Shown: positions 3-39,786 of the stretch, one piece after another
How positions within the stretch are numbered: the first letter of the stretch is position 1
How the letters are laid out: each line of letters opens with the position of its first letter
Origin: Candidatus Poseidoniales archaeon
Lineage (GTDB): Archaea > Thermoplasmatota > Poseidoniia > Poseidoniales > Poseidoniaceae
Direction: 5' to 3'
Length of the DNA stretch: 53,854 nt
Assembly: GCA_013911465.1 (NCBI GenBank)
Contig: JACETE010000001.1
Location: forward strand, 1-53,854
Program-made: the position numbers and the translations under genes
The notes under the pieces: model-generated
The model's input: the letters and a program-made list of their open reading frames with translations, nothing else
Database searches by the model: none
What the model was told of the DNA's origin: nothing

Positions 3-290
3 AAGCGCCGAATTCGTGCCCTTCTTTTTACTGTACCAATCATTCACATTTTGAACCTGTTTCGAAATGCGGGTCTTGTATGGATGCATCTTTCCTACGA
101 GGGTTGGGAGTACCTCGGTCTAAGCATGTTTGAGTTTGGACACTCGTATGCTTCACGCGTCGTCTCATTGTTCGCAATGTTTGTGATGGCTATCGCAATG
201 TTCGAGTTGCTACCTGAACTCCATCGTCACATTCTCAGACTGATGGATGCTGCAGGGTTGCGAAAGAAAAAACAAGACATCAATTCTTGA
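3..290 (+). CDS. Possible 3' end of a CDS running off the left edge (hypothetical membrane protein fragment)
   Basis: The frame is open from nt 3, with no stop before the listed TTG at 51. The tail has hydrophobic helix-like stretches (VVSLFAMFVMAIAMFELL) and a basic end (RKKKQ). No family recognised. Confidence 0.3.
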   Translation, partial: KRRIRALLFTVPIIHILNLFRNAGLVWMHLSYEGWEYLGLSMFEFGHSYASRVVSLFAMFVMAIAMFELLPELHRHILRLMDAAGLRKKKQDINS

Positions 291-3912: not shown

Positions 3913-4018
3913 GTTGAATTTCAACCGGTGGTGCTTGATAAGACCATTGCCTACCTTTTCCATAGTGCTATGGTGAATGTTGCGGTACATCAATGGCTTG
4001 GTACGTTGATTTGACAAC

Positions 4019-7000
4019 TTATTGCATCTTTTTTCCACCAATGCGGAGTTCTGTCTTCAACGGCATTTGGTGTTCCCAAGCGAATTCTTTGACGACACGC
4101 CAACCCTTCTCACTACCTTCATAATCTGTAACGTCAATGGTTTTGTTTCTTGTATTGGCTTTGAAAGCAGCAACAGGTTCGGCATTTTTGAACACCAGAT
4201 ATGCACTACCAAAGCCAAATTTTTCCTTTAGAACGTCACCGAAATAGGGGGCGATTGGATCAGTAGGAGGGAGGACAAAGTCACGTATCGGATTGATTGT
4301 CTTTGCGGATTCAAGCAATTCTTTTCGACCCCAACAGACCTCGTGCAGGTTTTCGATGAGGAATCCTTTGACGAGGGTACCATCGTCTTCAAATTCATTG
4401 AGCACAGCTTTCAATTCTTCAGGTTTGAATGGCGTTCCAGAAAGACGCAGGAGTTGCTTGATGGTAATGACTGGATAATCGCTCACAAGATTTCTCAGGT
4501 ATTCTCTTCGAAGATGAACTGGATCAGCATCTGTGCGTGGATGAACTGCCCTGAATCCTCCTCTGAAATCTTCGACAATGTGCCCAGTACGAATCAATGG
4601 TTGCACGAGTTTCCTAAATTCTGATTGCGTAAGTGCATGACGCTCTTTGAAGATGTTTGGATCGGTTTGTGTACTGAAGAAATCGATGATATCAACCAAA
4701 TCATCTTCAGGGGGAATTCCTCGAATGGTCAATAAATTCTCAAAATACTCATACGGGGCCCAAACTTGATGGCCACGCATGTTCACACCTTTGTGGAGTC
4801 GATTTGCGCTTGCCATTGATTTCAAATTGGTTCGGAACAATTCACATCGACCGCGGAGTGCGAAATCATCTCGTATCTCCTTGATTTTACGTAGTGCGAG
4901 AGTTTCATTTTCATGTCGTGTTTCTTGATGCAGGTGGTGTTGATGGAAAAGAGCCCGCTCAGCAATTTCCCTGGGTTGAGGGTCGACGACTCCACCTCGA
5001 ATCATTCGTTCGCCAACTTGTTTGAAACCAATTCGCTCCAAACCTGCACGCAATGGCTGACTTAACTCGGAAATCGGTTCACTGTTGACGTTGGTCAATA
5101 CTGCGACATCCACCAATTGATCTGCATGGTTCTCCAAGAGAATTAAGAAGGCATCACAAAACTCTTCGAAATATGCTGTTGGCACGTGCATGTCTTTAAT
5201 TTCTAAGTAATCATTGACCCTAAACATGAGTACTTTTCCAACTGGATCAACACCCTTGAACACAGGAAGATACCAACCTCGATCGAGTGCAGATCGAACT
5301 TCCCAAATGAATCGAGAAACGTACGGATCGGATTGAGTGAGAATACGAATACTTCGATCCTCTCTTCTGGGAACTCGTAACAATTCCACTTCAGCAGGTG
5401 TACAGTAAAAATCCTCAGTATCTGGAACAAGTGCTGTTACTTTGGAAATTTTACCACTTGTCTCCAAATTATGTAGCGCAACGAGTAAATCCTCGTAATT
5501 TCTTGAGACATAAAATCGCAACGTACTTGCCTTTACGGGGCCCATTCTTCGGACAACTTCTTCAATCGCATCTTCAAATTCCATCGGTTTGTAAACGCCG
5601 TGTACCCTGTGGAACAACGACAAACGTCGTCTTCGGCCGATGACTTCTTCAAATTGCTTCACGAACAACATTTGTCGGTCCAGATTGGAGACTGCATTTT
5701 TGACATCTCGCTCCATTTGGCGATGTTCTTCTCCTTTCGGGAAATCCTGGACCAATTCTTGTCGAGTGATGTTTTCATCTGGATGAAGTTTTGACAAGAC
5801 TTCTTCTTCCATCGCACCAATCCATGGTTCCGGTTTGAGGCCAAGCAACATTGGAATGTTCTTCTTGGTCGTGTAACCCATCCGATTGTGCAACAACCGT
5901 CCACTTACAACATCAGAATCGAGTTGCAAATCCTTCCAATCTTTAAATCTGAAATCCTTGATTCTGTACAACAATTCTTGTTGCTTTTGGACCAATACAT
6001 GCTCGTTAAAGGCATCAAAGACATCTTCGTATATTTTGAAAGATTTATCCAAAACAAGATTTTGAATCCAACGATATTCAACAACCTCTTCTTCTCCACC
6101 TGTGATTCGGTGCTCATCTACTTTGAGAATCAATTCAGCATCATCAGTTTGTGTAAAGAATCCTACACTGATCACGTTCCGGGTCTCGAGTTCATGGACG
6201 ATTCGATCAACGGATTTTTCTGAGAACGGAAGCCTCTCATGGAGAATTTCAGTGGTTTTTGGACCTTCAGATCCCAGAAGTTCGAGAACTTTGACACGAA
6301 GTGCTTCGTGTGGATCTCCAACAGGAATTGTTTTCCATTTAGTTGGTGTTGTTCCATCGAATTCACTGGCAATTTCAAACGTCATGTCTTTTGTATTGTA
6401 ATCGCGAAGATCAACAATAGATGTTGAATCCGTTTTGGCTAAACAAGCCAATGTTCCGTGGATTTCTGCCATAAACGGATTGAACCACTTTCCATCAATT
6501 TCTGGAACGCCCGTGCCATCAATTTTCGTAATCTTTCCTCGATTGCACAGTTCTTCGACCCAAGACCGAATAACTTCCAATTCAATACCCTCGAGTTTAT
6601 CCCTGTACAGGGGATTGTTGAATTCTCGATCAAGACCTCCACCATGTTGCATCAATTCATACAGAGATTCAGGTGAATGAGGAACAGGTGCTTTATCGCT
6701 GTAGTATTTGTCGAGTTGCTCCGAGGTCATCTCCGTAGCAAGGCTCCGTGTACCCATCAATCGACGTAGCACTTCTGGATCGATGTCTTTGACGAGGAAT
6801 GCTCGAGTCTTCATCGACATTAAATCCTCAAACGCAGACATGTACAAACTCATTCCTAAACGGGAAGGAATGGTTACCTTTGTGTGGACGATTCGTGCAT
6901 CTCCTTCAATACAGGATTCCAAGAATTGATTCAATCCAAAGACGTCAATATCACCAAAGAGGACTTCATTTTTGGCTTCCCTCATCAAGAGTGAACCTTC

Positions 7001-9310
7001 CATGGTCCGATGTCGTGTAAGAAGGGCCTCAGCTTTTTGTTGGAATTGTTGCGGGCTTATTTCTTCAGCACCAACTCGTTTAGGGATGATCATTGATCGG
7101 CCAGCAACTTCTCTGAATCGCTTGGCAAAAATTTGTGTGTTGATGATGTATCGCTCGATAACCTCGATGTGATTGTTTGACCGGAATGCTTCGTAAAGTT
7201 GGCCAGGGTCTACGTCTTGAGCAGTCCGAATAAGCAATCCATTTTCATCAAAGGAGAGTTCGATGACACTGATGCCGTTGGATTCAGCAATACCAGCCAT
7301 AAAGTAACCGAGAGCGGTGTTAAATGCACGCCCTCTACATGTTGTAATCAGATAGGCAGGATGTCCAGTCCCAATGATTTGTTCGATAAGGATTCGATTG
7401 GGTTCTGGAACTTGGAAGGTATCGATTGTATGTTCTTCCAAATGTCGAGCAATAGCATTCGAAACTGCATTGGAGAGACCGTATGCTTCCCGCAAGACAA
7501 GACGTGGATCTTGTTCACGTCGTAATGAAATCATGCAATGGCGTATCAAAGAAAGCAACGAGGCAGATAATTCCCTACTTCTTGAACGCGCTTCGCCTGA
7601 CCATGATGGGACCGTTGGTCGATATCCAGTAACACTCGATACGTTAACACGAGTGCCCTGTATGTTTGTAACACGATATGTGGAACCACCAAGGAGAATA
7701 ACATCCCCCCCTCGAAGATTGGACACAAAGGAACCAGATAACTGTCCAAGAATCGAACCTTCAGCATTGAATACAAGATAGGAATTATCTGGAGCAATTG
7801 TTCCAATGTTGGTGTAATAAATCATCCGAGAATATCCTCTCTTTCCGTATGTATTGTCTTCCCAATCAATCCAAACTCTTCGCTCCTCTTCGAGCATATC
7901 GAGAACTTCGATGAAATCGTCGTACTCGAAATTTCTATAGTTCCAGGCGCTTGAAACGATTTCAAATGCTTCATCGATGTCAATTTCATTGATAATGACA
8001 AGTCCAATCAGGAATTGAGCCACAACGTCAAGACAATTTTCTGGGAAATCAAGTCGGTCCATGTCTCCCGATTGAATTGCTGCTTGTAGGGCGGCTAATT
8101 CAATCAAATCATCGACACTCGATGGCAAGAATCGAGCACGAGGGATGCCTCCAACATGGTGACCTGCACGACCTATTCGTTGCAATGCAGTAGCGATATC
8201 ACCAGGGGAGCCGAGTTGAATAACCATGTCAACGGTTCCGATGTCAATACCCATTTCGAGTGAGGAAGAGGTGACTACTGCCCTCAAATGTCCTTTCTTG
8301 AGTTGCTGTTCAACGTTGAGTCGAATCTTTTTATCCATCGATCCGTGGTGGCCAGCTACAAGTTCGCCTAGTCCAAATTCAGGGCGGCGGAGTCTCTGAA
8401 CCAATGTTTCAGTCATTTTTCGAGTATTTGCAAAAACCAACGTGGTCGTGTGAGCTGAAATTAAATCAGCAATGATGCTAATGTTTTCATCAAGAATTTT
8501 CAGTACAGGTAAATCGCTGAATTTTTGATGCGGAAGGAGAATATCAAGGTCAAGTTCTCGTGACCCCGATACCTTTGCGATGTGTACCTTTTGTCCATCG
8601 CCTCGAGATTCCCGATCATCGCTTGCAACCAAATATTCAGCAACCGTTTCGAGTGGCTCCATGGTTGCTGAAATTCCTATTCGTTGTACTGGCCTCTCGA
8701 GTAACGTATCGAGATATGCTAGCGTAAGGGCGAGATGAACGCCTCTCTTTGTCGGTACGAGGGAATGCAGTTCGTCGATAATCATGTATTCAACATCACT
8801 GATGATCGGTTGAAATCTTGGTGATGTGATGGCAATTGCAAGGCTTTCTGGAGTCGTAATAAGAATATGCGGAGGATTGCGTAACATCTTTTGGCGTTCG
8901 GATTGAGGCGTATCACCTGTTCTTAATCCTACACGAATTTCTTGTGCACGATCGGGTAGGAATCGTTCTGAGATTTCATTGAGCGGTCCGATGAGATTCT
9001 TTTGAATATCATTCGCTAATGCTTTAATTGGCGAAATGTAAACGCAATGAATCCGTTTTTCCAATTTACCATCAAGTGCCTTGCGAACCAATTGATCAAT
9101 AATGGTGAGAAATGCAGTGAGTGTTTTACCTGAACCTGTTGGTGAACATAGCAGAAGATGTCCACCATCCATAATGGTAGGAATTGCAAGTTTTTGAGGT
9201 CGTGTAAAATCAGGAAACTTTTCTTTGAACCAATTCCGAACTGGGGCGCATAATTTGTCCAATAACACATCCGTTTCGGTGGGATGTTCGAGATATGTTA
9301 TCTCAGGCAT
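4019..9310 (-). CDS. lhr: Lhr-like large ATP-dependent SF2 helicase (1763 aa) with a long C-terminal extension
   Basis: Lhr-type N-terminus (VRNWFKEKFPDFTRPQKLAIP). Helicase motifs: I SPTGSGKT, Ia YISPIKALAND, II DELH, III SATM, V TSSSLEMGIDIG, VI QRIGRAGH. About 900 further residues follow the helicase core. A GGTGA sits 9 nt upstream of the ATG. Confidence 0.9.
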   Translation of the reverse strand: MPEITYLEHPTETDVLLDKLCAPVRNWFKEKFPDFTRPQKLAIPTIMDGGHLLLCSPTGSGKTLTAFLTIIDQLVRKALDGKLEKRIHCVYISPIKALANDIQKNLIGPLNEISERFLPDRAQEIRVGLRTGDTPQSERQKMLRNPPHILITTPESLAIAITSPRFQPIISDVEYMIIDELHSLVPTKRGVHLALTLAYLDTLLERPVQRIGISATMEPLETVAEYLVASDDRESRGDGQKVHIAKVSGSRELDLDILLPHQKFSDLPVLKILDENISIIADLISAHTTTLVFANTRKMTETLVQRLRRPEFGLGELVAGHHGSMDKKIRLNVEQQLKKGHLRAVVTSSSLEMGIDIGTVDMVIQLGSPGDIATALQRIGRAGHHVGGIPRARFLPSSVDDLIELAALQAAIQSGDMDRLDFPENCLDVVAQFLIGLVIINEIDIDEAFEIVSSAWNYRNFEYDDFIEVLDMLEEERRVWIDWEDNTYGKRGYSRMIYYTNIGTIAPDNSYLVFNAEGSILGQLSGSFVSNLRGGDVILLGGSTYRVTNIQGTRVNVSSVTGYRPTVPSWSGEARSRSRELSASLLSLIRHCMISLRREQDPRLVLREAYGLSNAVSNAIARHLEEHTIDTFQVPEPNRILIEQIIGTGHPAYLITTCRGRAFNTALGYFMAGIAESNGISVIELSFDENGLLIRTAQDVDPGQLYEAFRSNNHIEVIERYIINTQIFAKRFREVAGRSMIIPKRVGAEEISPQQFQQKAEALLTRHRTMEGSLLMREAKNEVLFGDIDVFGLNQFLESCIEGDARIVHTKVTIPSRLGMSLYMSAFEDLMSMKTRAFLVKDIDPEVLRRLMGTRSLATEMTSEQLDKYYSDKAPVPHSPESLYELMQHGGGLDREFNNPLYRDKLEGIELEVIRSWVEELCNRGKITKIDGTGVPEIDGKWFNPFMAEIHGTLACLAKTDSTSIVDLRDYNTKDMTFEIASEFDGTTPTKWKTIPVGDPHEALRVKVLELLGSEGPKTTEILHERLPFSEKSVDRIVHELETRNVISVGFFTQTDDAELILKVDEHRITGGEEEVVEYRWIQNLVLDKSFKIYEDVFDAFNEHVLVQKQQELLYRIKDFRFKDWKDLQLDSDVVSGRLLHNRMGYTTKKNIPMLLGLKPEPWIGAMEEEVLSKLHPDENITRQELVQDFPKGEEHRQMERDVKNAVSNLDRQMLFVKQFEEVIGRRRRLSLFHRVHGVYKPMEFEDAIEEVVRRMGPVKASTLRFYVSRNYEDLLVALHNLETSGKISKVTALVPDTEDFYCTPAEVELLRVPRREDRSIRILTQSDPYVSRFIWEVRSALDRGWYLPVFKGVDPVGKVLMFRVNDYLEIKDMHVPTAYFEEFCDAFLILLENHADQLVDVAVLTNVNSEPISELSQPLRAGLERIGFKQVGERMIRGGVVDPQPREIAERALFHQHHLHQETRHENETLALRKIKEIRDDFALRGRCELFRTNLKSMASANRLHKGVNMRGHQVWAPYEYFENLLTIRGIPPEDDLVDIIDFFSTQTDPNIFKERHALTQSEFRKLVQPLIRTGHIVEDFRGGFRAVHPRTDADPVHLRREYLRNLVSDYPVITIKQLLRLSGTPFKPEELKAVLNEFEDDGTLVKGFLIENLHEVCWGRKELLESAKTINPIRDFVLPPTDPIAPYFGDVLKEKFGFGSAYLVFKNAEPVAAFKANTRNKTIDVTDYEGSEKGWRVVKEFAWEHQMPLKTELRIGGKKMQ

Positions 9311-31552: not shown

Positions 31553-32752
31553 ATGACTGAGTGGGTTTCAACCAGACTTCTGGCTGACCGAAATCCAGAT
31601 TGGCAAAAGAGTCTCAGTGAATTTCTATCGAAGGAATCGTGGTCAGAAGACCTCCAGCCGATTGTTGATAAGATCCTCAAAGGAACTCCCCTAAACCGAT
31701 TCGACGGTGTTGAATTGTTCAACACTCCCAATCTCTTCGAACTTGGTAAGTTAGCCCATCTCCATAAAGTTGCAATGTTTGGAAATCGTGCATATTTTAA
31801 TTCTAATGTTCACGTTAATCAAACCAATATTTGCGTACTTGCTTGCAGATTTTGTGCCTTTCGAAGAGGTCCAAAAGCTGAAGATGCCTATGCTCTTACC
31901 ATTGATAATTATCTGGATGAGTTGTCGAAATTTTCACCCTTTGTGAACGAGGTTCATTCAGTAGGCGGGTTGCATCCTGAATGGACCGTTGAGCACTATT
32001 CACAACTGTTCGAACGGATACGCCGAGAACACCCACATATTTCGATCAAAGCACTAACTGCAGTTGAAATCAAACACCTCTCCCAACTCTCGAATCTCTC
32101 AATTATTGATACGTTGAGTATACTCCAACAATCAGGTCTAACCTCTCTTCCAGGTGGAGGCGCCGAGATACTTGATGACGAAGTACGCGCAGTTATTTGT
32201 AACGGAAAAGAATCAAGCCAGGAGTATCTCGACATTCATCGCGCAGCACATACAATTGGCTTACCAAGTAATTGTACAATGTTGTTTGGTACAATTGAAA
32301 CTGTTGAACAGCGCGTCGAACACATTCTCAAGTTACGAGATTTAGGAACAGAGACGAACGGATTTCAATGCTTCGTACCTTACCCCTTCCTCCCGGATTC
32401 AACACGATTACCAATGGCTCAACTTTCAACAGGCCAAGAAATCTTGCGAGTCATTGCCGTCTCTCGAATTCTTCTTGACAGCATACCACACATCAAAGCA
32501 TATCGAATGAATATTGGTGATGAACTTGCTGAACTCGCTCTACAATTTGGTGCAGATGATATCGATGGAACCGTGCAACAAGAATCGATTATGCATCTTG
32601 CTGGTTCAACCACTCCATTAACACACGATCTTCTTCAATTGTCTAAACTCGTTGAAAATGCTGGATGCATTCCAGTCAAGCGAAATACAACATACACCTC
32701 GTTTGAAGAATATACGCCTCCTCAACCGGTCAAAAGGCTTCCAATGGCATGA
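31553..32752 (+). CDS. Radical SAM enzyme of the futalosine pathway (MqnE/MqnC type; aminofutalosine synthase or cyclic dehypoxanthine futalosine synthase)
   Basis: CVLACRFCAF CxxxCxxC cluster after NVHVNQTN, GGLHPEW, LPGGGAEIL and GLPSNCTMLFGTIET. mqnA follows immediately. I cannot separate MqnE from MqnC by eye. Confidence 0.8.
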   Translation: MTEWVSTRLLADRNPDWQKSLSEFLSKESWSEDLQPIVDKILKGTPLNRFDGVELFNTPNLFELGKLAHLHKVAMFGNRAYFNSNVHVNQTNICVLACRFCAFRRGPKAEDAYALTIDNYLDELSKFSPFVNEVHSVGGLHPEWTVEHYSQLFERIRREHPHISIKALTAVEIKHLSQLSNLSIIDTLSILQQSGLTSLPGGGAEILDDEVRAVICNGKESSQEYLDIHRAAHTIGLPSNCTMLFGTIETVEQRVEHILKLRDLGTETNGFQCFVPYPFLPDSTRLPMAQLSTGQEILRVIAVSRILLDSIPHIKAYRMNIGDELAELALQFGADDIDGTVQQESIMHLAGSTTPLTHDLLQLSKLVENAGCIPVKRNTTYTSFEEYTPPQPVKRLPMA

Positions 32753-32785
32753 GGTGATTTATTGATTCAAAATGTACCACGATGG

Positions 32786-33565
32786 ATGAATACAATAGGC
32801 AGAGTTGCATTCATGAATTGTGATCCGCTATTTATTGGATTGGACAGCTCGTTTCACGTTTTACCAGCCCCCCCTTCTTGGTTAACTGGTCATCTCCTGC
32901 GACGGGATTGTGTCCTTGCTCCGATTCCCGCAGCCGATTTTGCAAAACACCATGAGGAATTGGCTCTTGTTCCAGAAATAGGAATATGCTCGAAGGGTGA
33001 AGTAGGAAGTGTCTTGGTTTTTGGAAATCGACCGTTAGAAGAAATGAGAGACATTGCTCTGCCAACGGATTCATCCTCTTCTGTTGCACTTCTCAAATTC
33101 CTACTGAAAGAGCGAGGCCTTGATCCACGTCCTGTTGAGATGGGGCCTGATCTTGATTCGATGCTTGAACGGTGTGATGGAGCATTACTGATTGGAGACA
33201 GGGCTCTTGATCGAGCAAAAACAGATCCAGAACTTGTTCGTCTCGACCTCGGCCAGGCCTGGTTAGAACGTACCGGTCAACCAATGGTATTCGGTGTCTT
33301 CGCGGCTCGAAAAGATACACCAATTGAAGCGGTTCGTTTGGCGCATCAAGCACTTTTGGAACGATTGCACTCATTTGAAAACGATCCGCTAACGAGGGAG
33401 AAGGTTCTGCTACACGCGCATTTGCACTCTGATATGTCAATGGATCGATTAAATCGATATTTCGGAGAAGTTTTCAACCGTCTTGATGACGAGCATGTCG
33501 ATGGATTACAAGAATATCTCATGCGATGTTGCGGAATGGAAGAAAAGTTGACATTCCTGTGGTAA
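32786..33565 (+). CDS. mqnA: MqnA-like chorismate dehydratase (VitK2 biosynthesis family)
   Basis: RVAFMNCDPLF N-terminus, GSVLVFG, ALPTDSSSSVALLKFLL, ALLIGDRAL and DLGQAWLERTGQPMVFGVFAAR match the MqnA pattern. The start may be the TTG at 32762 or the ATG at 32786. Confidence 0.75.
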   Translation: MNTIGRVAFMNCDPLFIGLDSSFHVLPAPPSWLTGHLLRRDCVLAPIPAADFAKHHEELALVPEIGICSKGEVGSVLVFGNRPLEEMRDIALPTDSSSSVALLKFLLKERGLDPRPVEMGPDLDSMLERCDGALLIGDRALDRAKTDPELVRLDLGQAWLERTGQPMVFGVFAARKDTPIEAVRLAHQALLERLHSFENDPLTREKVLLHAHLHSDMSMDRLNRYFGEVFNRLDDEHVDGLQEYLMRCCGMEEKLTFLW

Positions 33566-33579
33566 ATCACATATCTCAG

Positions 33580-35745
33580 TCAATTAAAATCATCTTCGGA
33601 TTGGGGTCTCTTGACAGCTCTGCGCCTCCGTGGTTCTGATGTTGTCTGGGAATCACTAAGTTTTCGCCGTTTTGTACGAACAGGTTCTTTTGTTGATTGT
33701 TTCGCTTTTCGTTTCCGAACGACTTCTTGAGAGGACTCTTGGAGAAGTTTTTCTGCTTCGTTAACAGAACGCTTGCGCACGGGTACTCGTTTTGATGCTA
33801 CTGTCTTCTCATCAGGTTGCTCCATTTGTTGTGGTTCTTCGAACTCCTCTAATTCATTAAAGAATGAATCCTCGATGTATTCATCCTCATCATCATCGAA
33901 TTCTTCATCATCAAGCGTTATTTGATAAGATGACTTACTCGATTGCTTTCGGAATAAAAAGATACCACCAAGAACTGATGCCCCAATTCCAAGGAGAAGA
34001 ACAACTAGAACTATCGGTGAAGAAATCAATGACGTAGCATCGATATCCTGATCATCAGTTTGAACGATTGTGAGTGAAAATTGAACACTTTCTTCCTGAA
34101 TGTGCCATGGAACATATTGTTCAGAATTGATTCCTTCTCCACTTAGTGTGACAAAAATAGGATGCTGTTCACTTAATTCTGTGATACTACCGTTTGCTGG
34201 GAATCGATGATTATCAAGTTGAATCGTCAATTGATCTAGGTTTTGAGGCGCATCAAATCGATACGTTAATTGGATTGAATATCGGATGTGTGATGTCTTA
34301 TCATTTGCAGGCATGAGAACCATGCCTTCAGTCACTTTACAATCAAATTCATCCAGTGCAATCGATGTGTTTTGAATTGAAATGAATGAGGCTATAGATG
34401 CCGCTATGACATCTTGCTGCATACTGAGGCATATAGAGTCAGCAAACAATTGAGTTTCATCCTGAGAGAGTCTAATGTCTGTATCGAGTGAGAATCTCGA
34501 GATGTCCCGAATACTTGCAGAATGTTGCTTGTTGAGTGTAAATGATTGATCAACAATAAGATGTGTTGAATTGAGAATCAACTCGATGCTGCGGATATAG
34601 TTTTCATTCGGCAAGAGTTCACATGCTATGCCAACATCAACACAATTGAGATCCCAGTTGTCTTCAATTCCATCCCCGTCGTCATCGGAATCCAATGAGT
34701 CTGGAACACCGTCGCCGTCCGTATCTGTACCGGAATCTCCGAGCCCGAGTTTCTCAATTTCCGTTGCGTATGCGACAATGTAATCCACTTTGGAGTTTGT
34801 GAAAAGATTGGAAAGTTCACCAATTTCATTGGTTATCATTGAATAATCTGTTATTTCATGGAACATGGTAAGTTGACCAATTGTGATTTCATTGAGGAGA
34901 TCATATGCAAGGATGTGCTGATACGGTGAATCTTTGTGCGCATAAATAATATTCAGGTCATCATTAATTTCATATCTCAATACGTCATCAATGTCAATAG
35001 CTTTTAGTTCTGCACCTGAAAATGTCCATTTTCTGATTCCATTATCGGGGGTGGCAATTGAGAAATATTCATCATCTTTTCCGATTGTACAAGCATTGAT
35101 GGTTGATTGCAATTGAATCGTCTGGTGGAGAACCTCACCATCGTCATCCCACAGTTGAATCAATCCATTGCGATCTGCTGTGAGGACACTGCCACTTGAT
35201 TCCGATACATCGAAACACGCCATCGGCCCAGTGTGATTTCCAATGTAAGATGACTCTTGTTCGAGTGTGTCTCGGTTGAGTTGAAGAACCCCGGTTTCAG
35301 GAGAATTTGCGTAAACGTTAGCACCATTTGGTGACCACATGAGGATATGAGCATTGGATATGGTTTCATCACTCGAGATTATTGTAGATAGGTCTGAGGT
35401 TGTGATGATATGAATCGTGTCACTGTTTGACGCAGTGGTCCGAAGTGTTAGGGCGATCTTAGTTTCATCAGGTGAAAGTGAAGTAGCAAGAATTTCAGTA
35501 TCAAAAATACGCTCTTGAAGGACAGTTCCATCTGAATCAAGTTTGTACATATTCGAACCGAATGAAGCAAAAATATTCTGTGACGAATCAGCCTCGATAG
35601 TTCTGTGACCACTATCAGCATTTTCGACGACGAATGCTTCTTTGAAGAAGAGTCCTGTGGCGGGTGTTGCACCAGCAGAACCGACAATTGCAATCATGAA
35701 ACACACCAACAAAAGAGACGCCCCCTGTCGGATTCTGTTTTCCAT
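33580..35745 (-). CDS. Membrane-anchored surface protein: signal peptide, beta-propeller-like repeats, TSP3-like Ca-binding repeat, C-terminal TM helix, strongly charged cytoplasmic tail
   Basis: N-terminal hydrophobic segment LLLVCFMIAIVGSAGA. WD/PQQ-like repeat strings (LSPDETKIALT, MWSPNGANVYA, VLTADRNGLIQLWDDDGE). GTDTDGDGVPDSLDSDDDGDGIEDNWD. TM helix IVLVVLLLGIGASVLGGIFLF. The tail has an acidic block followed by a basic block. Confidence 0.75.
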   Translation of the reverse strand: MENRIRQGASLLLVCFMIAIVGSAGATPATGLFFKEAFVVENADSGHRTIEADSSQNIFASFGSNMYKLDSDGTVLQERIFDTEILATSLSPDETKIALTLRTTASNSDTIHIITTSDLSTIISSDETISNAHILMWSPNGANVYANSPETGVLQLNRDTLEQESSYIGNHTGPMACFDVSESSGSVLTADRNGLIQLWDDDGEVLHQTIQLQSTINACTIGKDDEYFSIATPDNGIRKWTFSGAELKAIDIDDVLRYEINDDLNIIYAHKDSPYQHILAYDLLNEITIGQLTMFHEITDYSMITNEIGELSNLFTNSKVDYIVAYATEIEKLGLGDSGTDTDGDGVPDSLDSDDDGDGIEDNWDLNCVDVGIACELLPNENYIRSIELILNSTHLIVDQSFTLNKQHSASIRDISRFSLDTDIRLSQDETQLFADSICLSMQQDVIAASIASFISIQNTSIALDEFDCKVTEGMVLMPANDKTSHIRYSIQLTYRFDAPQNLDQLTIQLDNHRFPANGSITELSEQHPIFVTLSGEGINSEQYVPWHIQEESVQFSLTIVQTDDQDIDATSLISSPIVLVVLLLGIGASVLGGIFLFRKQSSKSSYQITLDDEEFDDDEDEYIEDSFFNELEEFEEPQQMEQPDEKTVASKRVPVRKRSVNEAEKLLQESSQEVVRKRKAKQSTKEPVRTKRRKLSDSQTTSEPRRRRAVKRPQSEDDFN

Positions 35746-35768
35746 GTCGTGAACTATGTCACCAATTA

Positions 35769-35807
35769 CATAAACAATCCGTATTTTGACCTTGCCAGTT
35801 GTTTATG
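35769..35807. promoter_or_regulatory. Perfect 9-bp inverted repeat (CATAAACAA / TTGTTTATG, 21-nt spacer) in a divergent intergenic region; candidate paired TATA-like elements or an operator
   Basis: Read directly from the sequence. Each arm presents TTTATG toward one of the two divergent genes (35745 minus, 35852 plus). Confidence 0.35.
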
Positions 35808-35851
35808 GAATGATGCGGTTGGTTCTTGAAGGGAGTGACTTTGGTTTGGCC

Positions 35852-36733
35852 ATGTCGAAACTACCACGAGACGATGATGGCAATTTAATTGTCAGGATTG
35901 GACACTCTCCAGACCCAGATGATGCATTTATGTTTCATGCAATGACCACGAATGCATTTCCTACGCCCGGTTACAATTTCGTACATGAACTGCAAGATAT
36001 TGAAACGCTCAATCACCGCGCAATGAATCAGGAATTGGAAGTCTCAGCAGTCTCCATCCATGCATATCCTGATATTTCAGAACACTACGCACTGATGAAC
36101 TGCGGTGCATCAATGGGAGAAGGATATGGGCCAATGATTGTTGCAAAACAGGGCTTGTCTTTGGAACAAGCAAAAGAATCTGTAATTGCAATCCCTGGTA
36201 TCAAGACATCTGCTTATCTCGGTCTTCGATTGGCTTGGGGCGATGTGAAGTTCGAAGTTGTACCCTTTGATGAAATCATTCCTCGTATTCTTGACGATAC
36301 TTACGCATGTGGCCTCATCATACACGAAGGTCAACTCACGTATGTTGAACACGATCTCAATGTTCTTATCGATCTAGGTGTTTGGTGGAATGAACGAACA
36401 GATGGTTGGCCAATGCCACTTGGCGGCAATGTCGTTCGCAGAGATTTGGGGCAGGATATAATGGAAGACATTACGATGTATACCAAAATGAGTATCGAGC
36501 ATTCCATTCAACATCCAGATGAGGCTTTGGAGTTTGCCAAAGCATGGGGTAGAGGTATCGATGACGAGACAAATCAGAAATTCGTCACTATGTACGTTAA
36601 TGACCGGACAATCGATTACAAACCTGAAGGTCGTTCCTCCATCCGCCAATTTTTGAAAGAAGGGCAAGAAATTGGAATGATTCGTGCCGATTTTGACATA
36701 GATGGTCTTTCATTCATTGGTTCAAAGGAGTGA
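35852..36733 (+). CDS. mqnD: MqnD, 1,4-dihydroxy-6-naphthoate synthase
   Basis: RIGHSPDPDDAFMFHAM, DIETLN, EVSAVSIHAY and GASMGEGYGPMIVA match the MqnD pattern. The ATG at 35852 is preceded by GAAGGGAGTGA. Confidence 0.85.
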   Translation: MSKLPRDDDGNLIVRIGHSPDPDDAFMFHAMTTNAFPTPGYNFVHELQDIETLNHRAMNQELEVSAVSIHAYPDISEHYALMNCGASMGEGYGPMIVAKQGLSLEQAKESVIAIPGIKTSAYLGLRLAWGDVKFEVVPFDEIIPRILDDTYACGLIIHEGQLTYVEHDLNVLIDLGVWWNERTDGWPMPLGGNVVRRDLGQDIMEDITMYTKMSIEHSIQHPDEALEFAKAWGRGIDDETNQKFVTMYVNDRTIDYKPEGRSSIRQFLKEGQEIGMIRADFDIDGLSFIGSKE

Positions 36734-37215
36734 TTACGGTGGAACTAAGACCGGCAACCAGTGAATATGGTTCAGTCGACCCAGCACCTCCATCAAATAC
36801 GGTTCAGTTGAATGAATTACGAACTGTTCTTCTCGATGAAAACGAAAAAATGTTTCAAAGGATGCGTTCTGTTTTCAAGCTACGAAATATCCGCTCACCT
36901 GAGGCTTGTCTGATTCTTTGTGAAGCATTTATCTCAGAAAGTGCTTTGCTGCGTCATGAACTAGCCTACGTTCTCGGTCAAATGCAAATGGATGAGGCGT
37001 TACCAACGTTGATCAGAATTCTTTCTGACAACAATGAGCATGTCATGGTTCGACATGAAGCTGCTGAAGCCCTTGGAGCAATAGGCAACCACAAAGCCAT
37101 CCCCACCCTCAAGAAATTCCTTTCTGATGAACACATAGAAGTGAGTGAATCCTGTGAAGTCGCACTTGATCTGATGGATTGGGTTCAAAACAGCAATGTC
37201 CCAGAATCGGCTTAA
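36730..37215 (+). CDS. Half-size deoxyhypusine hydroxylase (DOHH)-like HEAT-repeat protein
   Basis: Two DOHH-type His-Glu motifs (LLRHELAYVLGQMQ, VMVRHEAAEALGAIG), plus SVDPAPP and ESCEVALDL strings that I recall from eukaryotic DOHH. The GTG start overlaps the mqnD stop (GTGA). Confidence 0.75.
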   Translation: MITVELRPATSEYGSVDPAPPSNTVQLNELRTVLLDENEKMFQRMRSVFKLRNIRSPEACLILCEAFISESALLRHELAYVLGQMQMDEALPTLIRILSDNNEHVMVRHEAAEALGAIGNHKAIPTLKKFLSDEHIEVSESCEVALDLMDWVQNSNVPESA

Positions 37216-37263: not shown

Positions 37264-37476
37264 ATGATGCCACACGAACATGTCCAACTTGCACAAGCAC
37301 CAAATGGAGAGATTGGACCTCGATGTCATGATTGTGGTATTCGACTTACGTTCGGTTCTGCAATGGTACACAATCAACATTACTTTTGCTGGGACCACTA
37401 TGTGGCAATCACTGGAGCCGATACCGTTACCGTTGTCGGAGAAACAGAAGAGAAATTCTACATGAAGAACGCTTAG
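37264..37476 (+). CDS. Small putative zinc-binding protein (C-x2-C ... F-C-x2-H, zf-FCS/TRASH-like)
   Basis: AGGTGA lies 6 nt upstream of the ATG. The motif is CHDCG-x17-FCWDH. The antisense 77-aa ORF looks less protein-like. Only 70 aa, so the call is tentative. Confidence 0.4.
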   Translation: MMPHEHVQLAQAPNGEIGPRCHDCGIRLTFGSAMVHNQHYFCWDHYVAITGADTVTVVGETEEKFYMKNA

Positions 37477-37512: not shown

Positions 37513-38712
37513 ATGGCTTCAGCAGGATGGGCACGGTTTGCACATCGCTTTGGCCAATATTATCGTGACTCAACCTTTTGGCGACCACCACGAATGCCAA
37601 AGAGAGAATGGATGTTTATTCCATTTGGAGGTTCGCCTCCACTACGACACAAATCGTTCAGAAATGAGCAAGACCTGAGACGATTTCTTTCAGAACGCGC
37701 CATGCATTCATGTTTCTATTCCACTGCGTATTGGCAAAAGCCCTATGAGATGAAAATGGACAACAAAATATGGCAAGGTGCTGACCTCATTTTTGATCTT
37801 GATGGAGACCATTTGCCGGGTGTAACGGACAGAGATTTCCCTGGCATGTTGGATGTTATTCGTGACCAGGCTTATTCCCTATGGCATGACTTTCTTCAAC
37901 CTGAATTTGGTTTCAAAGAAGATTTTCTTCAAGTTACTTTTTCCGGACATAGAGGATTCCATCTTCACTATCGGGATCCGTCGTTATTCCATTTGGATTC
38001 GGAAGCGAGAAGAGAACTCGTTTCTCACATACGTGGCGAAGGTGTCGACGTGCAAGGTGGATTGACTCGCTTCAATGACGTTCGTGCAAATGGATGGACC
38101 AAACGAATCCGAACTCAAATTCCGACATTGATCGATAAGCTCGTTCAGATTGCAGAGAGAAATGAAAACTCGGCAGGAATAATGAAAGAACTACATCTTG
38201 GGCTCAAAGATAATCTTCAACGAGAAGGAAAACCAGGAAAAGGCCCAGTGAGTATCCAAAAACTCGCGGACATGTTTCTTCATGAAGAACGACGTGAGTC
38301 CGTTACTAATGGCCAAATTTCACGGTTAGGCACCAATCAGGGTCTGTTCCTTGATTTGGTGAAATCCGATGCATCAATTGTACTGGGTGCTGCAGGTGAA
38401 ACCGATGAAGTGGTAACCATCGATGTTCGTCGTCAAATTCGTTGGCCAACATCGCTTCATGGGAAAACAGGAATGAGGGTAACAGAATTCCCGTTGAATC
38501 GTTTAGATTCTGATGGTTCGAATCCTTTTGATGCGTTGAATGAGGCATTCGTCTTTGGTACAGATAAATCGATGGATGTTGAAATTATAGTCGACGATGC
38601 AATTCTACGATTTGGGCAAGACCAACATGATGTGACTGCGGGAGATCGGCTTCATGTTTCTGAATCAGCAGCGACATTTCTGAATCTCAAAGGTTGGGGC
38701 AAGATGGTTTGA
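37513..38712 (+). CDS. priS: DNA primase small (catalytic) subunit PriS
   Basis: Catalytic DLIFDLDGDH and FSGHRGFHLHY motifs. Length is typical of archaeal PriS. Confidence 0.9.
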   Translation: MASAGWARFAHRFGQYYRDSTFWRPPRMPKREWMFIPFGGSPPLRHKSFRNEQDLRRFLSERAMHSCFYSTAYWQKPYEMKMDNKIWQGADLIFDLDGDHLPGVTDRDFPGMLDVIRDQAYSLWHDFLQPEFGFKEDFLQVTFSGHRGFHLHYRDPSLFHLDSEARRELVSHIRGEGVDVQGGLTRFNDVRANGWTKRIRTQIPTLIDKLVQIAERNENSAGIMKELHLGLKDNLQREGKPGKGPVSIQKLADMFLHEERRESVTNGQISRLGTNQGLFLDLVKSDASIVLGAAGETDEVVTIDVRRQIRWPTSLHGKTGMRVTEFPLNRLDSDGSNPFDALNEAFVFGTDKSMDVEIIVDDAILRFGQDQHDVTAGDRLHVSESAATFLNLKGWGKMV

Positions 38713-38772
38713 AAATCCTGAACATAATATCTCAAATTTTCAGTACTGATTGTGGTAAGGTTCAAGGGTAGT

Positions 38773-39786
38773 ATGGCCTCCAGTCAATTTAGAGGTGAAG
38801 GTATGCGACGTCGAAAAAAGAACAAATCAACAGAAACAGCCCCTTCTCCACTCCCTCCTCTTCCAGGCATGCCGCCTTTACCAGGAGCGCCATTGCCGCC
38901 TTTGCCCGCTGCACCAACTCCAGAACCACAACCACTCCCTGAATTGCCAGCATCACCTGTGCCAGCGCCCGTTCCAGCGCCTACGGTGCCTGGAGCACCT
39001 CAACCTTCCCCACCCCAGGCACAACAACCAGATGACAATTCCAATGAATACGGAGATTTGTGGGCAAAACGCTCTGCGAAACCATTGCCTCAGATTTATG
39101 GAGCAATCGACCGACTTGGTTCTGGAGAAACGGGTTCACTATTGGATCGATATTCCGATCGTTTTGGGCATTCTCTCGATCGTGACATCATCGTTTTGCG
39201 AAAGAAAGAACGTGAAGAAGCCCTCAATGAAGCACGAAACGCTCCAGTGGTTGAACTTCTCGATGAAGAAGAGCATGATCGGTTAACAGAGGTTGAAAAC
39301 CTATTGCGTGAACTCAAACCCCAATACAAATCTGCTAAATCAGCAGGTGATAAGGAAGCCCTCCGCATTTTAGTCCCTCAATTGGAACAACTGATGGCCG
39401 AACGTCGTTCGTTGATGAGTCAAGCGAGTCCAGTAACGGAAACACAAGTGTCGACTGACTCGGATTCAGCAACTGAACCGGCCGAAGAAACCCATCAAGA
39501 TGATAATGAGGCCGATGAATTGTTCTCACAATTCTTCACCATTGTGAACGATTTACTTGGTGATGAATTGCCTGAGGAAGCAATCGAATCCTTCCTCGCA
39601 TCGGATGGATTTGAGTTATTCAAGGAAGTTGGAGCTGATCCATCTGCTATCGATGATGAGCGACGTGGTGAATTCTTCAAGATTATCGATGAACAACTTG
39701 GCAACATGCCCGACAGTTCGATTACGAAGTTCGTAGAATCAGGTGAATTTGAAATATACAAACAAATTTCTGAAATGTATACATGA
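38773..39786 (+). CDS. Hypothetical protein: basic N-terminus, polyproline PPLP tract, coiled-coil-like middle, acidic C-terminus with two tandem ~35-aa repeats
   Basis: RRRKKNKS; PSPLPPLPGMPPLPGAPLPPLPAAPTPEPQPLPELP; repeats QFFTIVNDLLGDELPEEAIESFLASDGFELFKEV and EFFKIIDEQLGNMPDSSITKFVESGEFEIYKQI. I prefer the ATG at 38773 over the GTG at 38752. Confidence 0.6.
   Translation: MASSQFRGEGMRRRKKNKSTETAPSPLPPLPGMPPLPGAPLPPLPAAPTPEPQPLPELPASPVPAPVPAPTVPGAPQPSPPQAQQPDDNSNEYGDLWAKRSAKPLPQIYGAIDRLGSGETGSLLDRYSDRFGHSLDRDIIVLRKKEREEALNEARNAPVVELLDEEEHDRLTEVENLLRELKPQYKSAKSAGDKEALRILVPQLEQLMAERRSLMSQASPVTETQVSTDSDSATEPAEETHQDDNEADELFSQFFTIVNDLLGDELPEEAIESFLASDGFELFKEVGADPSAIDDERRGEFFKIIDEQLGNMPDSSITKFVESGEFEIYKQISEMYT

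What the first reader, a model, noticed from the sequence alone, without database searches (positions are those of the whole stretch)
36730..37215. Stand-alone half-size deoxyhypusine hydroxylase (DOHH)-like protein, translationally coupled to mqnD
The 161-aa ORF carries two His-Glu motifs in DOHH-specific context (LLRHELAYVLGQMQ and VMVRHEAAEALGAIG). It also has SVDPAPP near its N-terminus and ESCEVALDL near its C-terminus. As I recall eukaryotic DOHH, it is about 300 aa, built from two pseudo-symmetric four-HEAT halves, with four HE motifs ligating a di-iron centre. Under that recollection, these strings correspond to the inter-half linker plus the C-terminal half. They do not fit generic PBS-lyase HEAT repeats, which have VRxxAAxALG without the HE pair. 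A protein with only two HE motifs cannot form the di-iron site as a monomer. Three explanations remain: it homodimerises (an ancestral-like half-gene form), it pairs with a second half encoded elsewhere, or it is a truncated remnant. To my knowledge a DOHH has not been assigned for most archaea, even though some carry hypusinated aIF5A. Its GTG start overlaps the mqnD stop (GTGA at 36730..36733), so it is probably co-translated with an unrelated quinone gene.
Basis: partly seen in the sequence, partly recalled or inferred. Interest (0 to 1): 0.75.

Follow-up and report, generated by a model that had tools for sequence, protein, structure and literature searches.

The report
Half-size deoxyhypusine hydroxylase in marine archaea
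A marine Group II archaeon (Poseidoniaceae) carries a conserved gene for exactly one half of the eukaryotic enzyme that finishes the hypusine modification of translation factor 5A, an enzyme the literature says archaea lack, and it most likely works as a pair of identical halves.

Summary
The ORF is real, and it is a true relative of deoxyhypusine hydroxylase (DOHH), not a generic HEAT protein. Human DOHH (4D4Z) is the best PDB hit (E 1e-66). Each DOHH half scores 107-118 bits, against 43 bits or less for generic HEAT segments.

Both His-Glu iron motifs, the substrate-pocket Gly and the linker motif SVDPAPP are invariant across the archaeal family. The gene is 152-163 codons long in at least 80 Poseidoniales species genomes and never appears as a doubled gene. 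It keeps the order mqnD, half-DOHH, small Cys/His ORF, priS in 88 of 91 sources. It is under strong purifying selection (dN/dS about 0.05-0.1). It is therefore not a remnant.

Two details of the finding need correcting:
- The HEAT core is not specifically the C-terminal half. It is equidistant from both halves and scores better on the N-half profile than real N halves do.
- The likely start is GTG 36739, with a GGAG eight bases upstream, not the GTGA overlap.

A tandem copy models onto 4D4Z (TM 0.94, rmsd 1.5 Å). This fits a homodimer that builds the di-iron site, but does not prove one. Substrate, metal content and dimerisation remain inferred.

The parts
36739..37215 (+). Half-size DOHH-like gene, probable coding region (158 aa, GTG start). 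The longest ORF starts at GTG 36730 (161 aa).
   Evidence: ORF. Start inferred from relatives that have ATG at the position-4 codon with GGAG/GGTG 7-8 nt upstream. Best PDB hit is human DOHH 4D4Z, E 1.3e-66.
36727..36730 (+). GGAG, a Shine-Dalgarno-like site 8 nt before GTG 36739. It abuts the mqnD stop codon (TGA 36731..36733).
   Evidence: Sequence. GGAG or GGTG lies at the same distance from the start in most of 91 related loci.
36730..36733 (+). GTGA: an alternative GTG start overlapping the mqnD stop.
   Evidence: The GTG is absent in the more distant relatives, whose junction reads TAGGTG...ATG.
36772..36792 (+). Leader motif SVDPAPP (residues 15-21), equivalent to the linker between the two halves of eukaryotic DOHH.
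   Evidence: It aligns to SVDPAPP of 4D4Z. S15-P20 is invariant in 38 family members. DP[AS]P is present in the linker of 91 of 112 full-length DOHHs.
36796..37191 (+). Four HEAT hairpins (eight helices, residues 23-154).
   Evidence: The AlphaFold2 monomer has pLDDT of about 97-99 across this range. Its best structural match is 4D4Z.
36955..36960 (+). His76-Glu77, the first His-Glu motif. It is equivalent to human H56-E57 and H207-E208.
   Evidence: Alignment. Invariant in the family and present in all 91 loci.
36976..36978 (+). Gly83 of LGQ, equivalent to the human Gly of the LGQ motif (G214 in the C half and its N-half partner), which is needed for substrate binding.
   Evidence: Alignment. 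Invariant. Role of the human residues from PMC9117371.
37054..37059 (+). His109-Glu110, the second His-Glu motif. It is equivalent to human H89-E90 and H240-E241.
   Evidence: Alignment. Invariant in the family and present in all 91 loci.
35786..36733 (+). Upstream mqnD-like gene (1,4-dihydroxy-6-naphthoate synthase family). Gene callers on near-identical contigs start it at the equivalent of 35813.
   Evidence: Pfam VitK2_biosynth. PDB hits 2CZL/3A3U and 1ZBM. It lies upstream of the half-DOHH in 90 of 91 sources.
37267..37476 (+). Conserved small ORF (69-70 aa) with a CxxC...CWxH pattern, directly downstream. Its function is unknown and whether it belongs to the system is also unknown.
   Evidence: Present downstream in 89 of 91 sources. 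Conserved pattern shown. No Pfam or PDB hit.
37513..38712 (+). priS (DNA primase small subunit), the last gene of the conserved same-strand block. It is context, not part of the enzyme.
   Evidence: Pfam DNA_primase_S. Conserved downstream.

Best explanation
The gene encodes a functional, half-size member of the deoxyhypusine hydroxylase family in a Poseidoniaceae (Marine Group II) archaeon.

The 158-161 aa chain folds into four HEAT hairpins. These carry one His-Glu pair on hairpin 2 (H76-E77) and one on hairpin 3 (H109-E110).

I infer that two identical chains pack face to face around a two-fold axis, as the N and C halves of the eukaryotic enzyme do around their pseudo-two-fold axis. Each chain would then give His76, His109 and Glu110 to one iron. 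The dimer would hold the di-iron centre that activates O2. Glu77 and Gly83 from both chains would line the pocket for the deoxyhypusine side chain.

The most likely substrate is deoxyhypusine on the archaeon's own translation factor aIF5A, converted to hypusine.

Shown here: homology, conservation of the ligands, pocket residues and leader, the fold, constancy of the half size, synteny and purifying selection. Inferred: dimerisation, iron binding and the substrate.
For: Homology to DOHH:
- Human DOHH 4D4Z is the top PDB hit (E 1.3e-66). Both halves align at about 45-50% identity, with HE on HE.
- Generic HEAT_PBS segments reach only 7-43 bits per stretch and have no HE.

Conservation in the family:
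- H76, E77, G83, H109, E110 and S15-P20 are invariant in 38 diverse members.
- All 91 loci keep both HE motifs, and the ORFs are 152-163 codons.
- dN/dS is 0.047 for the closest informative pair, with a median of 0.115 over 11 pairs.
- The block mqnD, half-DOHH, small ORF, priS is found in 88 of 91 sources, on archaeal contigs up to 920 kb.

Fold:
- The monomer model has pLDDT 89, with the core at about 98, and its best fold match is 4D4Z.
- A head-to-tail copy of the protein models with pLDDT 91 and pTM 0.89. It superposes on 4D4Z with TM 0.94 and rmsd 1.5 Å over 286 columns.

One chain serving both roles:
- The protein scores 164.9 bits on the N-half profile and 161.7 on the C-half profile. 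Real N halves score 122 on the C profile and real C halves 135 on the N profile.

Literature:
- The six iron ligands are two His and one Glu from each half, and E57/E208 and the LGQ Gly bind the substrate (PMC9117371).
- DHS and aIF5A are reported in all archaeal genomes (PMC5178350, PMC6105217, PMC7773846).
- A DHS homologue is described in a Poseidoniales genome (PMC10407285).
Against: - No dimer was modelled as two free chains. The tandem model was driven by an alignment of full-length eukaryotic DOHHs and by a covalent link, and no coordinates were available to measure ligand distances.
- aIF5A and DHS were not seen in this window and could not be searched for in Poseidoniales genomes here.
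- A divergent second half elsewhere in the genome is not excluded, because only the best 80 of 399 genome hits were visible.
- The only conserved neighbours are a quinone-pathway gene, a small unknown ORF and primase. None of them links the gene to translation.
- The invariant leader is left disordered in the monomer model (pLDDT 46-57).
Confidence: 0.6

Rival explanations
1. It is one subunit of a heterodimer. A second, divergent half-DOHH encoded elsewhere in the genome supplies the other two His-Glu motifs.
For: A single chain cannot build the di-iron site. Only the best 80 of 399 genome hits were listed, so a paralogue below about 59% identity would have been invisible.
Against: - There is no second DOHH-like sequence in the 53.8 kb window or within 6-10 kb of the gene in 90 related loci.
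- The 80 listed genome loci come from 80 different assemblies.
- All half-size hits in two large protein searches form one family.
- The protein fits the N-half and C-half profiles equally well. That is the opposite of what a specialised subunit would show.
Confidence: 0.12
2. It is a DOHH-type di-iron oxygenase that acts on a substrate other than aIF5A. One example would be a step linked to the neighbouring menaquinone (futalosine) genes. Another would be a different aminobutylated or polyamine-like substrate.
For: Adjacency to mqnD is conserved in 90 of 91 sources, and the two genes sit 5 nt apart or overlap. MqnA-like and radical-SAM CofH-like genes lie 3-5 kb upstream. Poseidoniales DHS homologues have been interpreted as homospermidine synthases (speY) rather than aIF5A-modifying enzymes (PMC10407285).
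Against: - Identity to eukaryotic DOHH is about 45-55%, and every residue reported to bind the deoxyhypusine side chain is kept (PMC9117371).
- To my knowledge the known late futalosine steps need no hydroxylase.
- The same block also holds primase, so the block is not a pathway operon.
Confidence: 0.15
3. It is a decaying remnant of a full-length DOHH, or a eukaryotic contaminant or misassembly, with no function of its own.
For: It is half the normal length, and its closest full-length relatives are eukaryotic.
Against: - The half-size ORF is found in at least 80 species-level genomes and never as a doubled gene.
- 64 columns are invariant among 38 diverse members.
- dN/dS is about 0.05-0.1.
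- It is embedded in conserved archaeal synteny on contigs up to 920 kb.
- GC content is the same as in its neighbours.
Confidence: 0.02
4. It is a generic HEAT / PBS-lyase-like scaffold with no catalytic metal site.
For: Pfam reports only HEAT_PBS, HEAT_2 and HEAT. NCBIfam shows weak hits to NblB and CpcE.
Against: - The NCBIfam hits are at 31 bits or less, against cut-offs of 300 and above.
- Generic HEAT segments lack His-Glu and score 43 bits or less per stretch, against 107-118 bits for the DOHH halves.
- The DOHH-specific linker motif is present and invariant.
Confidence: 0.03

Closest known systems
Eukaryotic deoxyhypusine hydroxylase (human DOHH, PDB 4D4Z/4D50; yeast Lia1); EC 1.14.99.29
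   Same: - The HEAT-hairpin fold is the same.
- The His-Glu motifs sit in the same sequence context (LLxHExAYxLGQ and MVRHEAAEALG).
- The substrate-pocket Glu and Gly are kept.
- The SVDPAPP motif is kept.
- Identity to either half is about 45-55%.
- A tandem copy superposes on 4D4Z at TM 0.94.
   Different: - It has one four-hairpin unit with two His-Glu motifs, instead of eight hairpins with four.
- SVDPAPP is an N-terminal leader instead of an internal linker.
- It is found in an archaeon.
- The core is equidistant from the N and C halves rather than matching one of them.
- About half of the family carries an acidic C-terminal tail ending in Trp.
PBS-lyase HEAT-like repeat proteins (Pfam PF03130; CpcE/CpcF, NblB, E. 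coli YibA)
   Same: The repeat type and helical hairpin architecture are the same. Pfam HEAT_PBS is matched above its threshold.
   Different: - Those proteins have VRxxAAxALG without His-Glu and have no di-iron site (PMC3306375 for YibA).
- The NCBIfam equivalog scores here are about a tenth of the cut-offs.
Designed alphaRep and consensus HEAT proteins (e.g. 3LTJ, 6FT5)
   Same: The four-to-six hairpin HEAT solenoid is the same, with fold matches at TM of about 0.67.
   Different: They are artificial binders without metal ligands. Sequence identity is 25-30%, against 47% to DOHH.

Membership tests
Deoxyhypusine hydroxylase (DOHH) | Specific sequence similarity to DOHH, clearly above that to generic HEAT-repeat proteins | tested here: met
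   4D4Z is matched at E 1.3e-66, with 107 and 118 bits per half. Generic HEAT segments reach 7-43 bits. The protein scores 162-165 bits on profiles of real DOHH halves.
Deoxyhypusine hydroxylase (DOHH) | His-Glu motifs at the positions of the iron ligands (human H56-E57, H89-E90, H207-E208, H240-E241) | tested here: met
   H76-E77 and H109-E110 align to both pairs of human motifs. They are invariant in the family. There are only two motifs per chain.
Deoxyhypusine hydroxylase (DOHH) | Eight HEAT repeats in one chain, arranged as a symmetrical dyad with four His-Glu motifs | tested here: not met
   The chain is 158-161 aa with eight helices, that is four hairpins. All 91 related ORFs are 152-163 codons. 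No adjacent second copy exists.
Deoxyhypusine hydroxylase (DOHH) | Residues that bind the deoxyhypusine side chain (human E57, E90, E208, E241 and the Gly of LGQ) | tested here: met
   E77, E110 and G83 align to them and are invariant. The roles of the human residues come from PMC9117371.
Deoxyhypusine hydroxylase (DOHH) | Conserved SVDPAPP-type motif preceding the second four-hairpin unit | tested here: met
   It is present as an N-terminal leader and invariant in the family. DP[AS]P occurs in the linker of 91 of 112 full-length DOHHs.
Deoxyhypusine hydroxylase (DOHH) | Two iron atoms per active unit and a stable peroxo-di-iron(III) intermediate | not testable with these tools
   This needs purified protein. 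Only indirect compatibility is available, from the tandem model that matches 4D4Z.
Deoxyhypusine hydroxylase (DOHH) | Hydroxylates deoxyhypusine on IF5A | not testable with these tools
Deoxyhypusine hydroxylase (DOHH) | Co-occurrence with deoxyhypusine synthase and IF5A in the same genome | not tested
   Neither gene is in the window. The literature states that both are in all archaeal genomes (PMC5178350, PMC6105217). A DHS homologue is reported in a Poseidoniales genome (PMC10407285).
PBS-lyase HEAT-like repeat proteins (bilin lyases, NblB) | Matches the Pfam HEAT_PBS repeat model | tested here: met
   PF03130 is matched at E 2e-16 and 59 bits, against a cut-off of 20.9. This is membership at the level of the repeat type only.
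PBS-lyase HEAT-like repeat proteins (bilin lyases, NblB) | Reaches the curated score of a lyase or NblB equivalog model | tested here: not met
   NblB scores 31 bits against a cut-off of 300. CpcE scores 26.5 against 330.

The most novel reading that the evidence does not exclude
The Poseidoniaceae protein is a living representative of the unduplicated form of DOHH: a homodimeric four-HEAT di-iron hydroxylase. It would have separated from the eukaryotic lineage at or before the internal duplication that produced the eight-HEAT enzyme. It would also be the first true archaeal DOHH, making real hypusine in an abundant ocean archaeon. The evidence that leaves this open is its central position between the N and C halves, its monophyly (191 of 200 bootstraps) and its unresolved placement relative to the two halves.
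Probability: 0.3. Interest if true: 0.85.

Novelty: new variant of a known kind. Interest (0 to 1): 0.72.

Why it matters
- **Archaeal DOHH.** Reviews and primary papers up to at least 2020 state that no DOHH homologue exists in any archaeon, although some archaea contain hypusine (PMC5178350, PMC6105217, PMC7773846). Here a clear DOHH homologue turns out to be a conserved gene of one of the most abundant archaeal groups of the surface ocean. No paper in the searchable library mentions it. One automatic pipeline (JGI) labels it 'deoxyhypusine monooxygenase', and NCBI calls it a HEAT-repeat or hypothetical protein.
- **A natural experiment.** It offers a half-enzyme in which to ask how a pseudo-symmetric di-iron site can be built from identical subunits. 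It also bears on how a non-enzymatic repeat scaffold became an oxygenase (compare PMC9040561).
- **Directly testable.** The protein is small and should be easy to express.
- **What it does not explain.** It does not account for hypusine in Sulfolobus and its relatives. No homologue was seen outside Poseidoniales.

Tried and rejected
- **Dimer mimic with a flexible linker.** I built an alignment of copy, (GGGGS)6, copy using only archaeal family members, to test dimerisation without eukaryotic information. I did not try to get round the rule.
- **Representative-library search.** It listed only full-length DOHHs and giant multi-HEAT proteins, because summed scores outrank single-unit proteins. 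It gave no view of other half-size families.
- **Genome-collection scan.** It was saturated: the best 80 of 399 hits are all Poseidoniales. Taxa below about 59% identity, and any divergent second copy, stayed invisible.
- **Second protein search.** I started it from a different family clade to walk outwards. It again returned only Poseidoniales-type half-size proteins and eukaryotic full-length ones.
- **Proteins of 241-268 aa.** These might have been prokaryotic near-full-length DOHHs. They lie in eukaryotic gene neighbourhoods and are split gene calls.
- **Rooting the N / C / archaeal three-way split.** Generic HEAT_PBS segments as an outgroup gave 2, 2 and 0 informative sites, so the rooting is uninformative.
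- **Vestigial SVDPAPP at the N-termini of full-length DOHHs.** One regex match in 112, plus one look-alike seen by eye, so this is no evidence either way.
- **Papers that were not held.** Park 2006, Kim 2006 and Han 2015 could not be read. I therefore could not check my recollection that isolated human halves are inactive, and I do not rely on it.
- **aIF5A and DHS.** They were not found in the window, and I had no way to search Poseidoniales genomes for them.
- **Bacterial-type promoter and terminator scan.** Counts did not exceed the shuffled controls. No plus-strand terminator-like site lies inside the block, which is weak evidence at best in an archaeon.
Full report
**What is there.** GTGA at 36730..36733 is present, and TGA 36731..36733 ends the upstream ORF. 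The upstream ORF is MqnD-like: Pfam VitK2_biosynth E 7e-64, PDB 2CZL/3A3U 'menaquinone biosynthetic enzyme' E 3e-47 and 1ZBM E 9e-66. A second VitK2_biosynth gene at 32762..33565 matches chorismate dehydratase MqnA instead. The window is ordinary chromosome of a Poseidoniaceae (Marine Group II) archaeon. It encodes ProRS, SRP54, PriS, MetRS, transketolase, the Trk system and a proteasome-type AAA ATPase. Near-identical proteins are named 'Candidatus Poseidoniaceae archaeon'.

**It is DOHH-like, not a generic HEAT protein.** Pfam sees only HEAT_PBS, HEAT_2 and HEAT. NCBIfam gives only sub-threshold bilin-lyase and NblB hits, at 31 bits or less against cut-offs of 300 and above.
- Against the PDB, the top hit is human DOHH 4D4Z at E 1.3e-66. 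The query aligns to both halves: residues 28-154 to the N half at 107 bits, and residues 7-150 to linker plus C half at 118 bits.
- In that alignment H76-E77 falls on H56-E57 and H207-E208, H109-E110 falls on H89-E90 and H240-E241, and SVDPAPP falls on SVDPAPP.
- Segments of generic multi-HEAT proteins that cover the same span score 7-43 bits. They read VRxxAAxALG, and 18 of the 20 contain no His-Glu at all.
- The residues reported to anchor the irons are H56, H89, E90, H207, H240 and E241. Those reported to bind the deoxyhypusine side chain are E57, E90, E208, E241 and the Gly of LGQ (PMC9117371). All have invariant counterparts in the archaeal family: H76, E77, G83, H109 and E110.

**It is a conserved gene, not a remnant.**
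- A search of 5.8 billion proteins returns a family of 150-166 aa proteins at 62-99% identity, on contigs up to 920 kb. Full-length eukaryotic DOHHs follow at 42-52% identity.
- A scan of one genome per prokaryotic species finds 399 stretches encoding a relative. The best 80 (59-88% identity) come from 80 different assemblies. Most titles name Poseidoniales, Poseidoniaceae or Poseidonia. The rest carry only broad labels (Methanobacteriota, Euryarchaeota, Thermoplasmatota), and two are bins labelled as bacteria. All carry the same gene block.
- In all 91 sources the ORF runs 152-163 codons from the start of the match to the stop and keeps both His-Glu motifs.
- Sixty-four columns are invariant among 38 diverse members.
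- dN/dS against the window gene is 0.047 for the closest informative pair (dS about 1.0). The median is 0.115 over the 11 pairs whose dS is not saturated.
- The order mqnD, half-DOHH, small ORF, priS holds in 88 of 91 sources (gene tables).
- The protein diverges at about the same rate as PriS. Mean identity to the window is 68% for the half-DOHH, 71% for PriS and 81% for MqnD.

**Start codon and coupling.** In the window clade the junction reads GGAGTGAnnnnn(A/G)TG. Most relatives have ATG at the codon equivalent to residue 4. More distant clades read TAGGTGnnnnnnnATG and have no start at position 1. The conserved features are therefore a GGAG or GGTG 7-8 nt before the position-4 start. In the window this gives GGAG 36727..36730 and GTG 36739, for a 158-aa product. 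That is also the length NCBI annotates for a near-identical protein. The gene therefore begins 5 nt after the mqnD stop, with its ribosome-binding site laid over that stop. The packing is tight and co-transcription is likely, but it is not the four-base overlap described. No plus-strand terminator-like site lies in the block, though such a scan means little for an archaeon.

**Which half is it?** I split 69 full-length DOHHs into N and C halves and aligned them with the archaeal family, here called M.
- In the HEAT core (residues 28-155), M is 42% identical to N halves and 44% to C halves on average. N and C halves of the same or of different proteins are only 37% identical.
- Neighbour-joining recovers M as a clade in 191 of 200 bootstraps. 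Its sister group is C-only in 77 replicates, N-only in 62 and mixed in 52.
- With majority consensus sequences the identities are N-C 60%, N-M 59% and C-M 57%. This gives a three-way star with branch lengths 0.26, 0.31 and 0.33. M shares a residue with N alone at 14 sites and with C alone at 11.
- On profiles built from the halves, M scores 164.9 bits on the N profile and 161.7 on the C profile. Real N halves score 154.1 on the N profile and real C halves 173.2 on the C profile. The cross scores are 122 (N on the C profile) and 135 (C on the N profile).
- The core is therefore not 'the C-terminal half'. It sits at the centre of the N/C split and looks like a consensus or ancestor of both. Only the leader and the ESCEVALD helix are C-like.
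- Rooting with generic HEAT segments is uninformative. Full-length DOHHs show no clear relic of a leader at their N-termini.

**Structure.**
- With the archaeal family as the alignment, AlphaFold2 gives eight helices over residues 23-154 at pLDDT of about 97-99. The overall mean is 89. 4D4Z is the best structural match at 47% identity.
- The invariant leader (residues 1-22) is left at pLDDT 46-57.
- I also submitted a head-to-tail concatenation of the window protein, aligned with 58 full-length DOHHs. The tool accepted it. The model has pLDDT 91 and pTM 0.89, and the SVDPAP of the second copy is at about 90. It superposes on 4D4Z with target-normalised TM 0.94 and rmsd 1.5 Å over 286 columns.
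- This shows that two copies are compatible with the DOHH architecture. It is not an independent proof of dimerisation, because the alignment and the covalent link favour that outcome and I had no coordinates to measure ligand distances.

**Most likely mechanism.** Each eukaryotic half gives two His and one Glu to one iron, and the halves are related by a pseudo-two-fold axis (PMC9117371, PMC3306375). From this I infer a homodimer in which each chain binds one iron through H76, H109 and E110, and both chains line the substrate pocket. The equal fit to the N and C profiles is what a subunit playing both roles would show. The substrate is most likely deoxyhypusine on aIF5A, for three reasons:
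- every residue reported to bind that substrate is kept;
- identity to the eukaryotic enzyme is about 45-55%;
- Poseidoniales live in oxygenated surface water (PMC10783094).

DHS and aIF5A are said to be present in all archaeal genomes (PMC5178350, PMC6105217, PMC7773846). A DHS homologue, interpreted there as homospermidine synthase speY, is described in a Poseidoniales genome (PMC10407285). I could not check either gene in these genomes.

**Rivals.**
- A partner half encoded elsewhere is not excluded. However, nothing DOHH-like lies in the window or within 6-10 kb in 90 loci, and all visible half-size proteins form one family.
- A different substrate, perhaps linked to the conserved mqnD neighbour, remains possible.
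- The remnant, contaminant and generic-scaffold readings are rejected by the data above.

**Comparison with what is known, and origin.** The literature repeatedly states that DOHH is absent from archaea (PMC3306375, PMC5178350, PMC6105217, PMC7773846). Searches combining DOHH with Marine Group II, Poseidoniales or 'DOHH homolog' found no description of this family. JGI's pipeline already labels members 'deoxyhypusine monooxygenase', while NCBI labels them HEAT-repeat or hypothetical proteins. So this is a new variant of a known enzyme kind, seen but not discussed.

Its origin is unresolved among three readings: a pre-duplication relic, a transfer from a stem eukaryote, or truncation followed by symmetrisation. 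Gene exchange between Poseidoniales and stramenopiles has been proposed for another polyamine gene (PMC10407285). The best-scoring named eukaryotic hits include oomycetes and a plasmodiophorid. Even so, M is not nested in either half's clade.

**Verdict.** Function as a homodimeric archaeal DOHH is the best-supported reading (about 0.6). Interest is 0.72.

Noticed in passing
window 37267..37476 (+): A 69-70 aa ORF lies between the half-DOHH and priS and is present downstream in 89 of 91 sources. At least 90% of sequences share the pattern MPHxHxxLAQxPNGExGPRCxxCGxRLTFGxxMVxxxxYxCWxHYVxxTGAD, which looks like a small zinc ribbon (CxxC...CWxH). It has no Pfam or PDB sequence match. Whether it serves the hydroxylase (metal or electron delivery) or primase is unknown.
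   Followed up: partly
loci L040-L090 (e.g. L043:5980-6462, L059, L080): 43 of 91 family members end in an acidic tail closed by a tryptophan (EFEETEW, EWEDTSW, EPTEIDW). The window protein and its clade lack it. It looks like a docking tail, but nothing is known about it.
   Followed up: no
L016 (CALDQY010000261.1) and L020 (CAXQWT010000082.1): Two genome bins labelled as bacteria (Rhodobiaceae; Salipiger bermudensis) carry the whole archaeal mqnD, half-DOHH, small ORF, priS block. These contigs are almost certainly Poseidoniales contamination of the bins.
   Followed up: partly
proteins P0064, P0071, P0074 (alignment A4): Three metagenomic family members have an N-terminal part from one family clade and a C-terminal part identical to another. 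They are either assembly chimeras on short contigs or recombinants.
   Followed up: no
window 31553..36733: The futalosine-pathway genes are interrupted. A radical-SAM CofH-like gene (31553..32752) and an MqnA-like gene (32762..33565) are separated from the MqnD-like gene (35786..36733) by a 721-aa minus-strand protein (33580..35745). That protein has weak beta-propeller matches, a hydrophobic stretch and a highly charged tail. The arrangement is conserved in relatives.
   Followed up: partly
window 280..9310 (-): There is a 1763-aa Lhr-type helicase with DEAD_assoc, winged-helix and AlkZ-like glycosylase-type domains. Next to it is a 1253-aa protein with PPC and C-type lectin domains.
   Followed up: no
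window 38752..39786 (+): A 344-aa ORF after priS has a proline-rich N-terminal third and an acidic remainder. It has no Pfam match. A gene of 318-341 aa with no Pfam hit is called at this position in related contigs.
   Followed up: no
window residues P21 and N53 of the half-DOHH (36790..36792, 36886..36888): Two human DOHH disease variants, p.P152L and p.N184K (PMC11203672), map to conserved positions here. They fall on the last proline of SVDPAPP and on the invariant Asn of LRN. The mapping rests on my inferred offset of +5 between 4D4Z chain numbering and protein numbering.
   Followed up: partly
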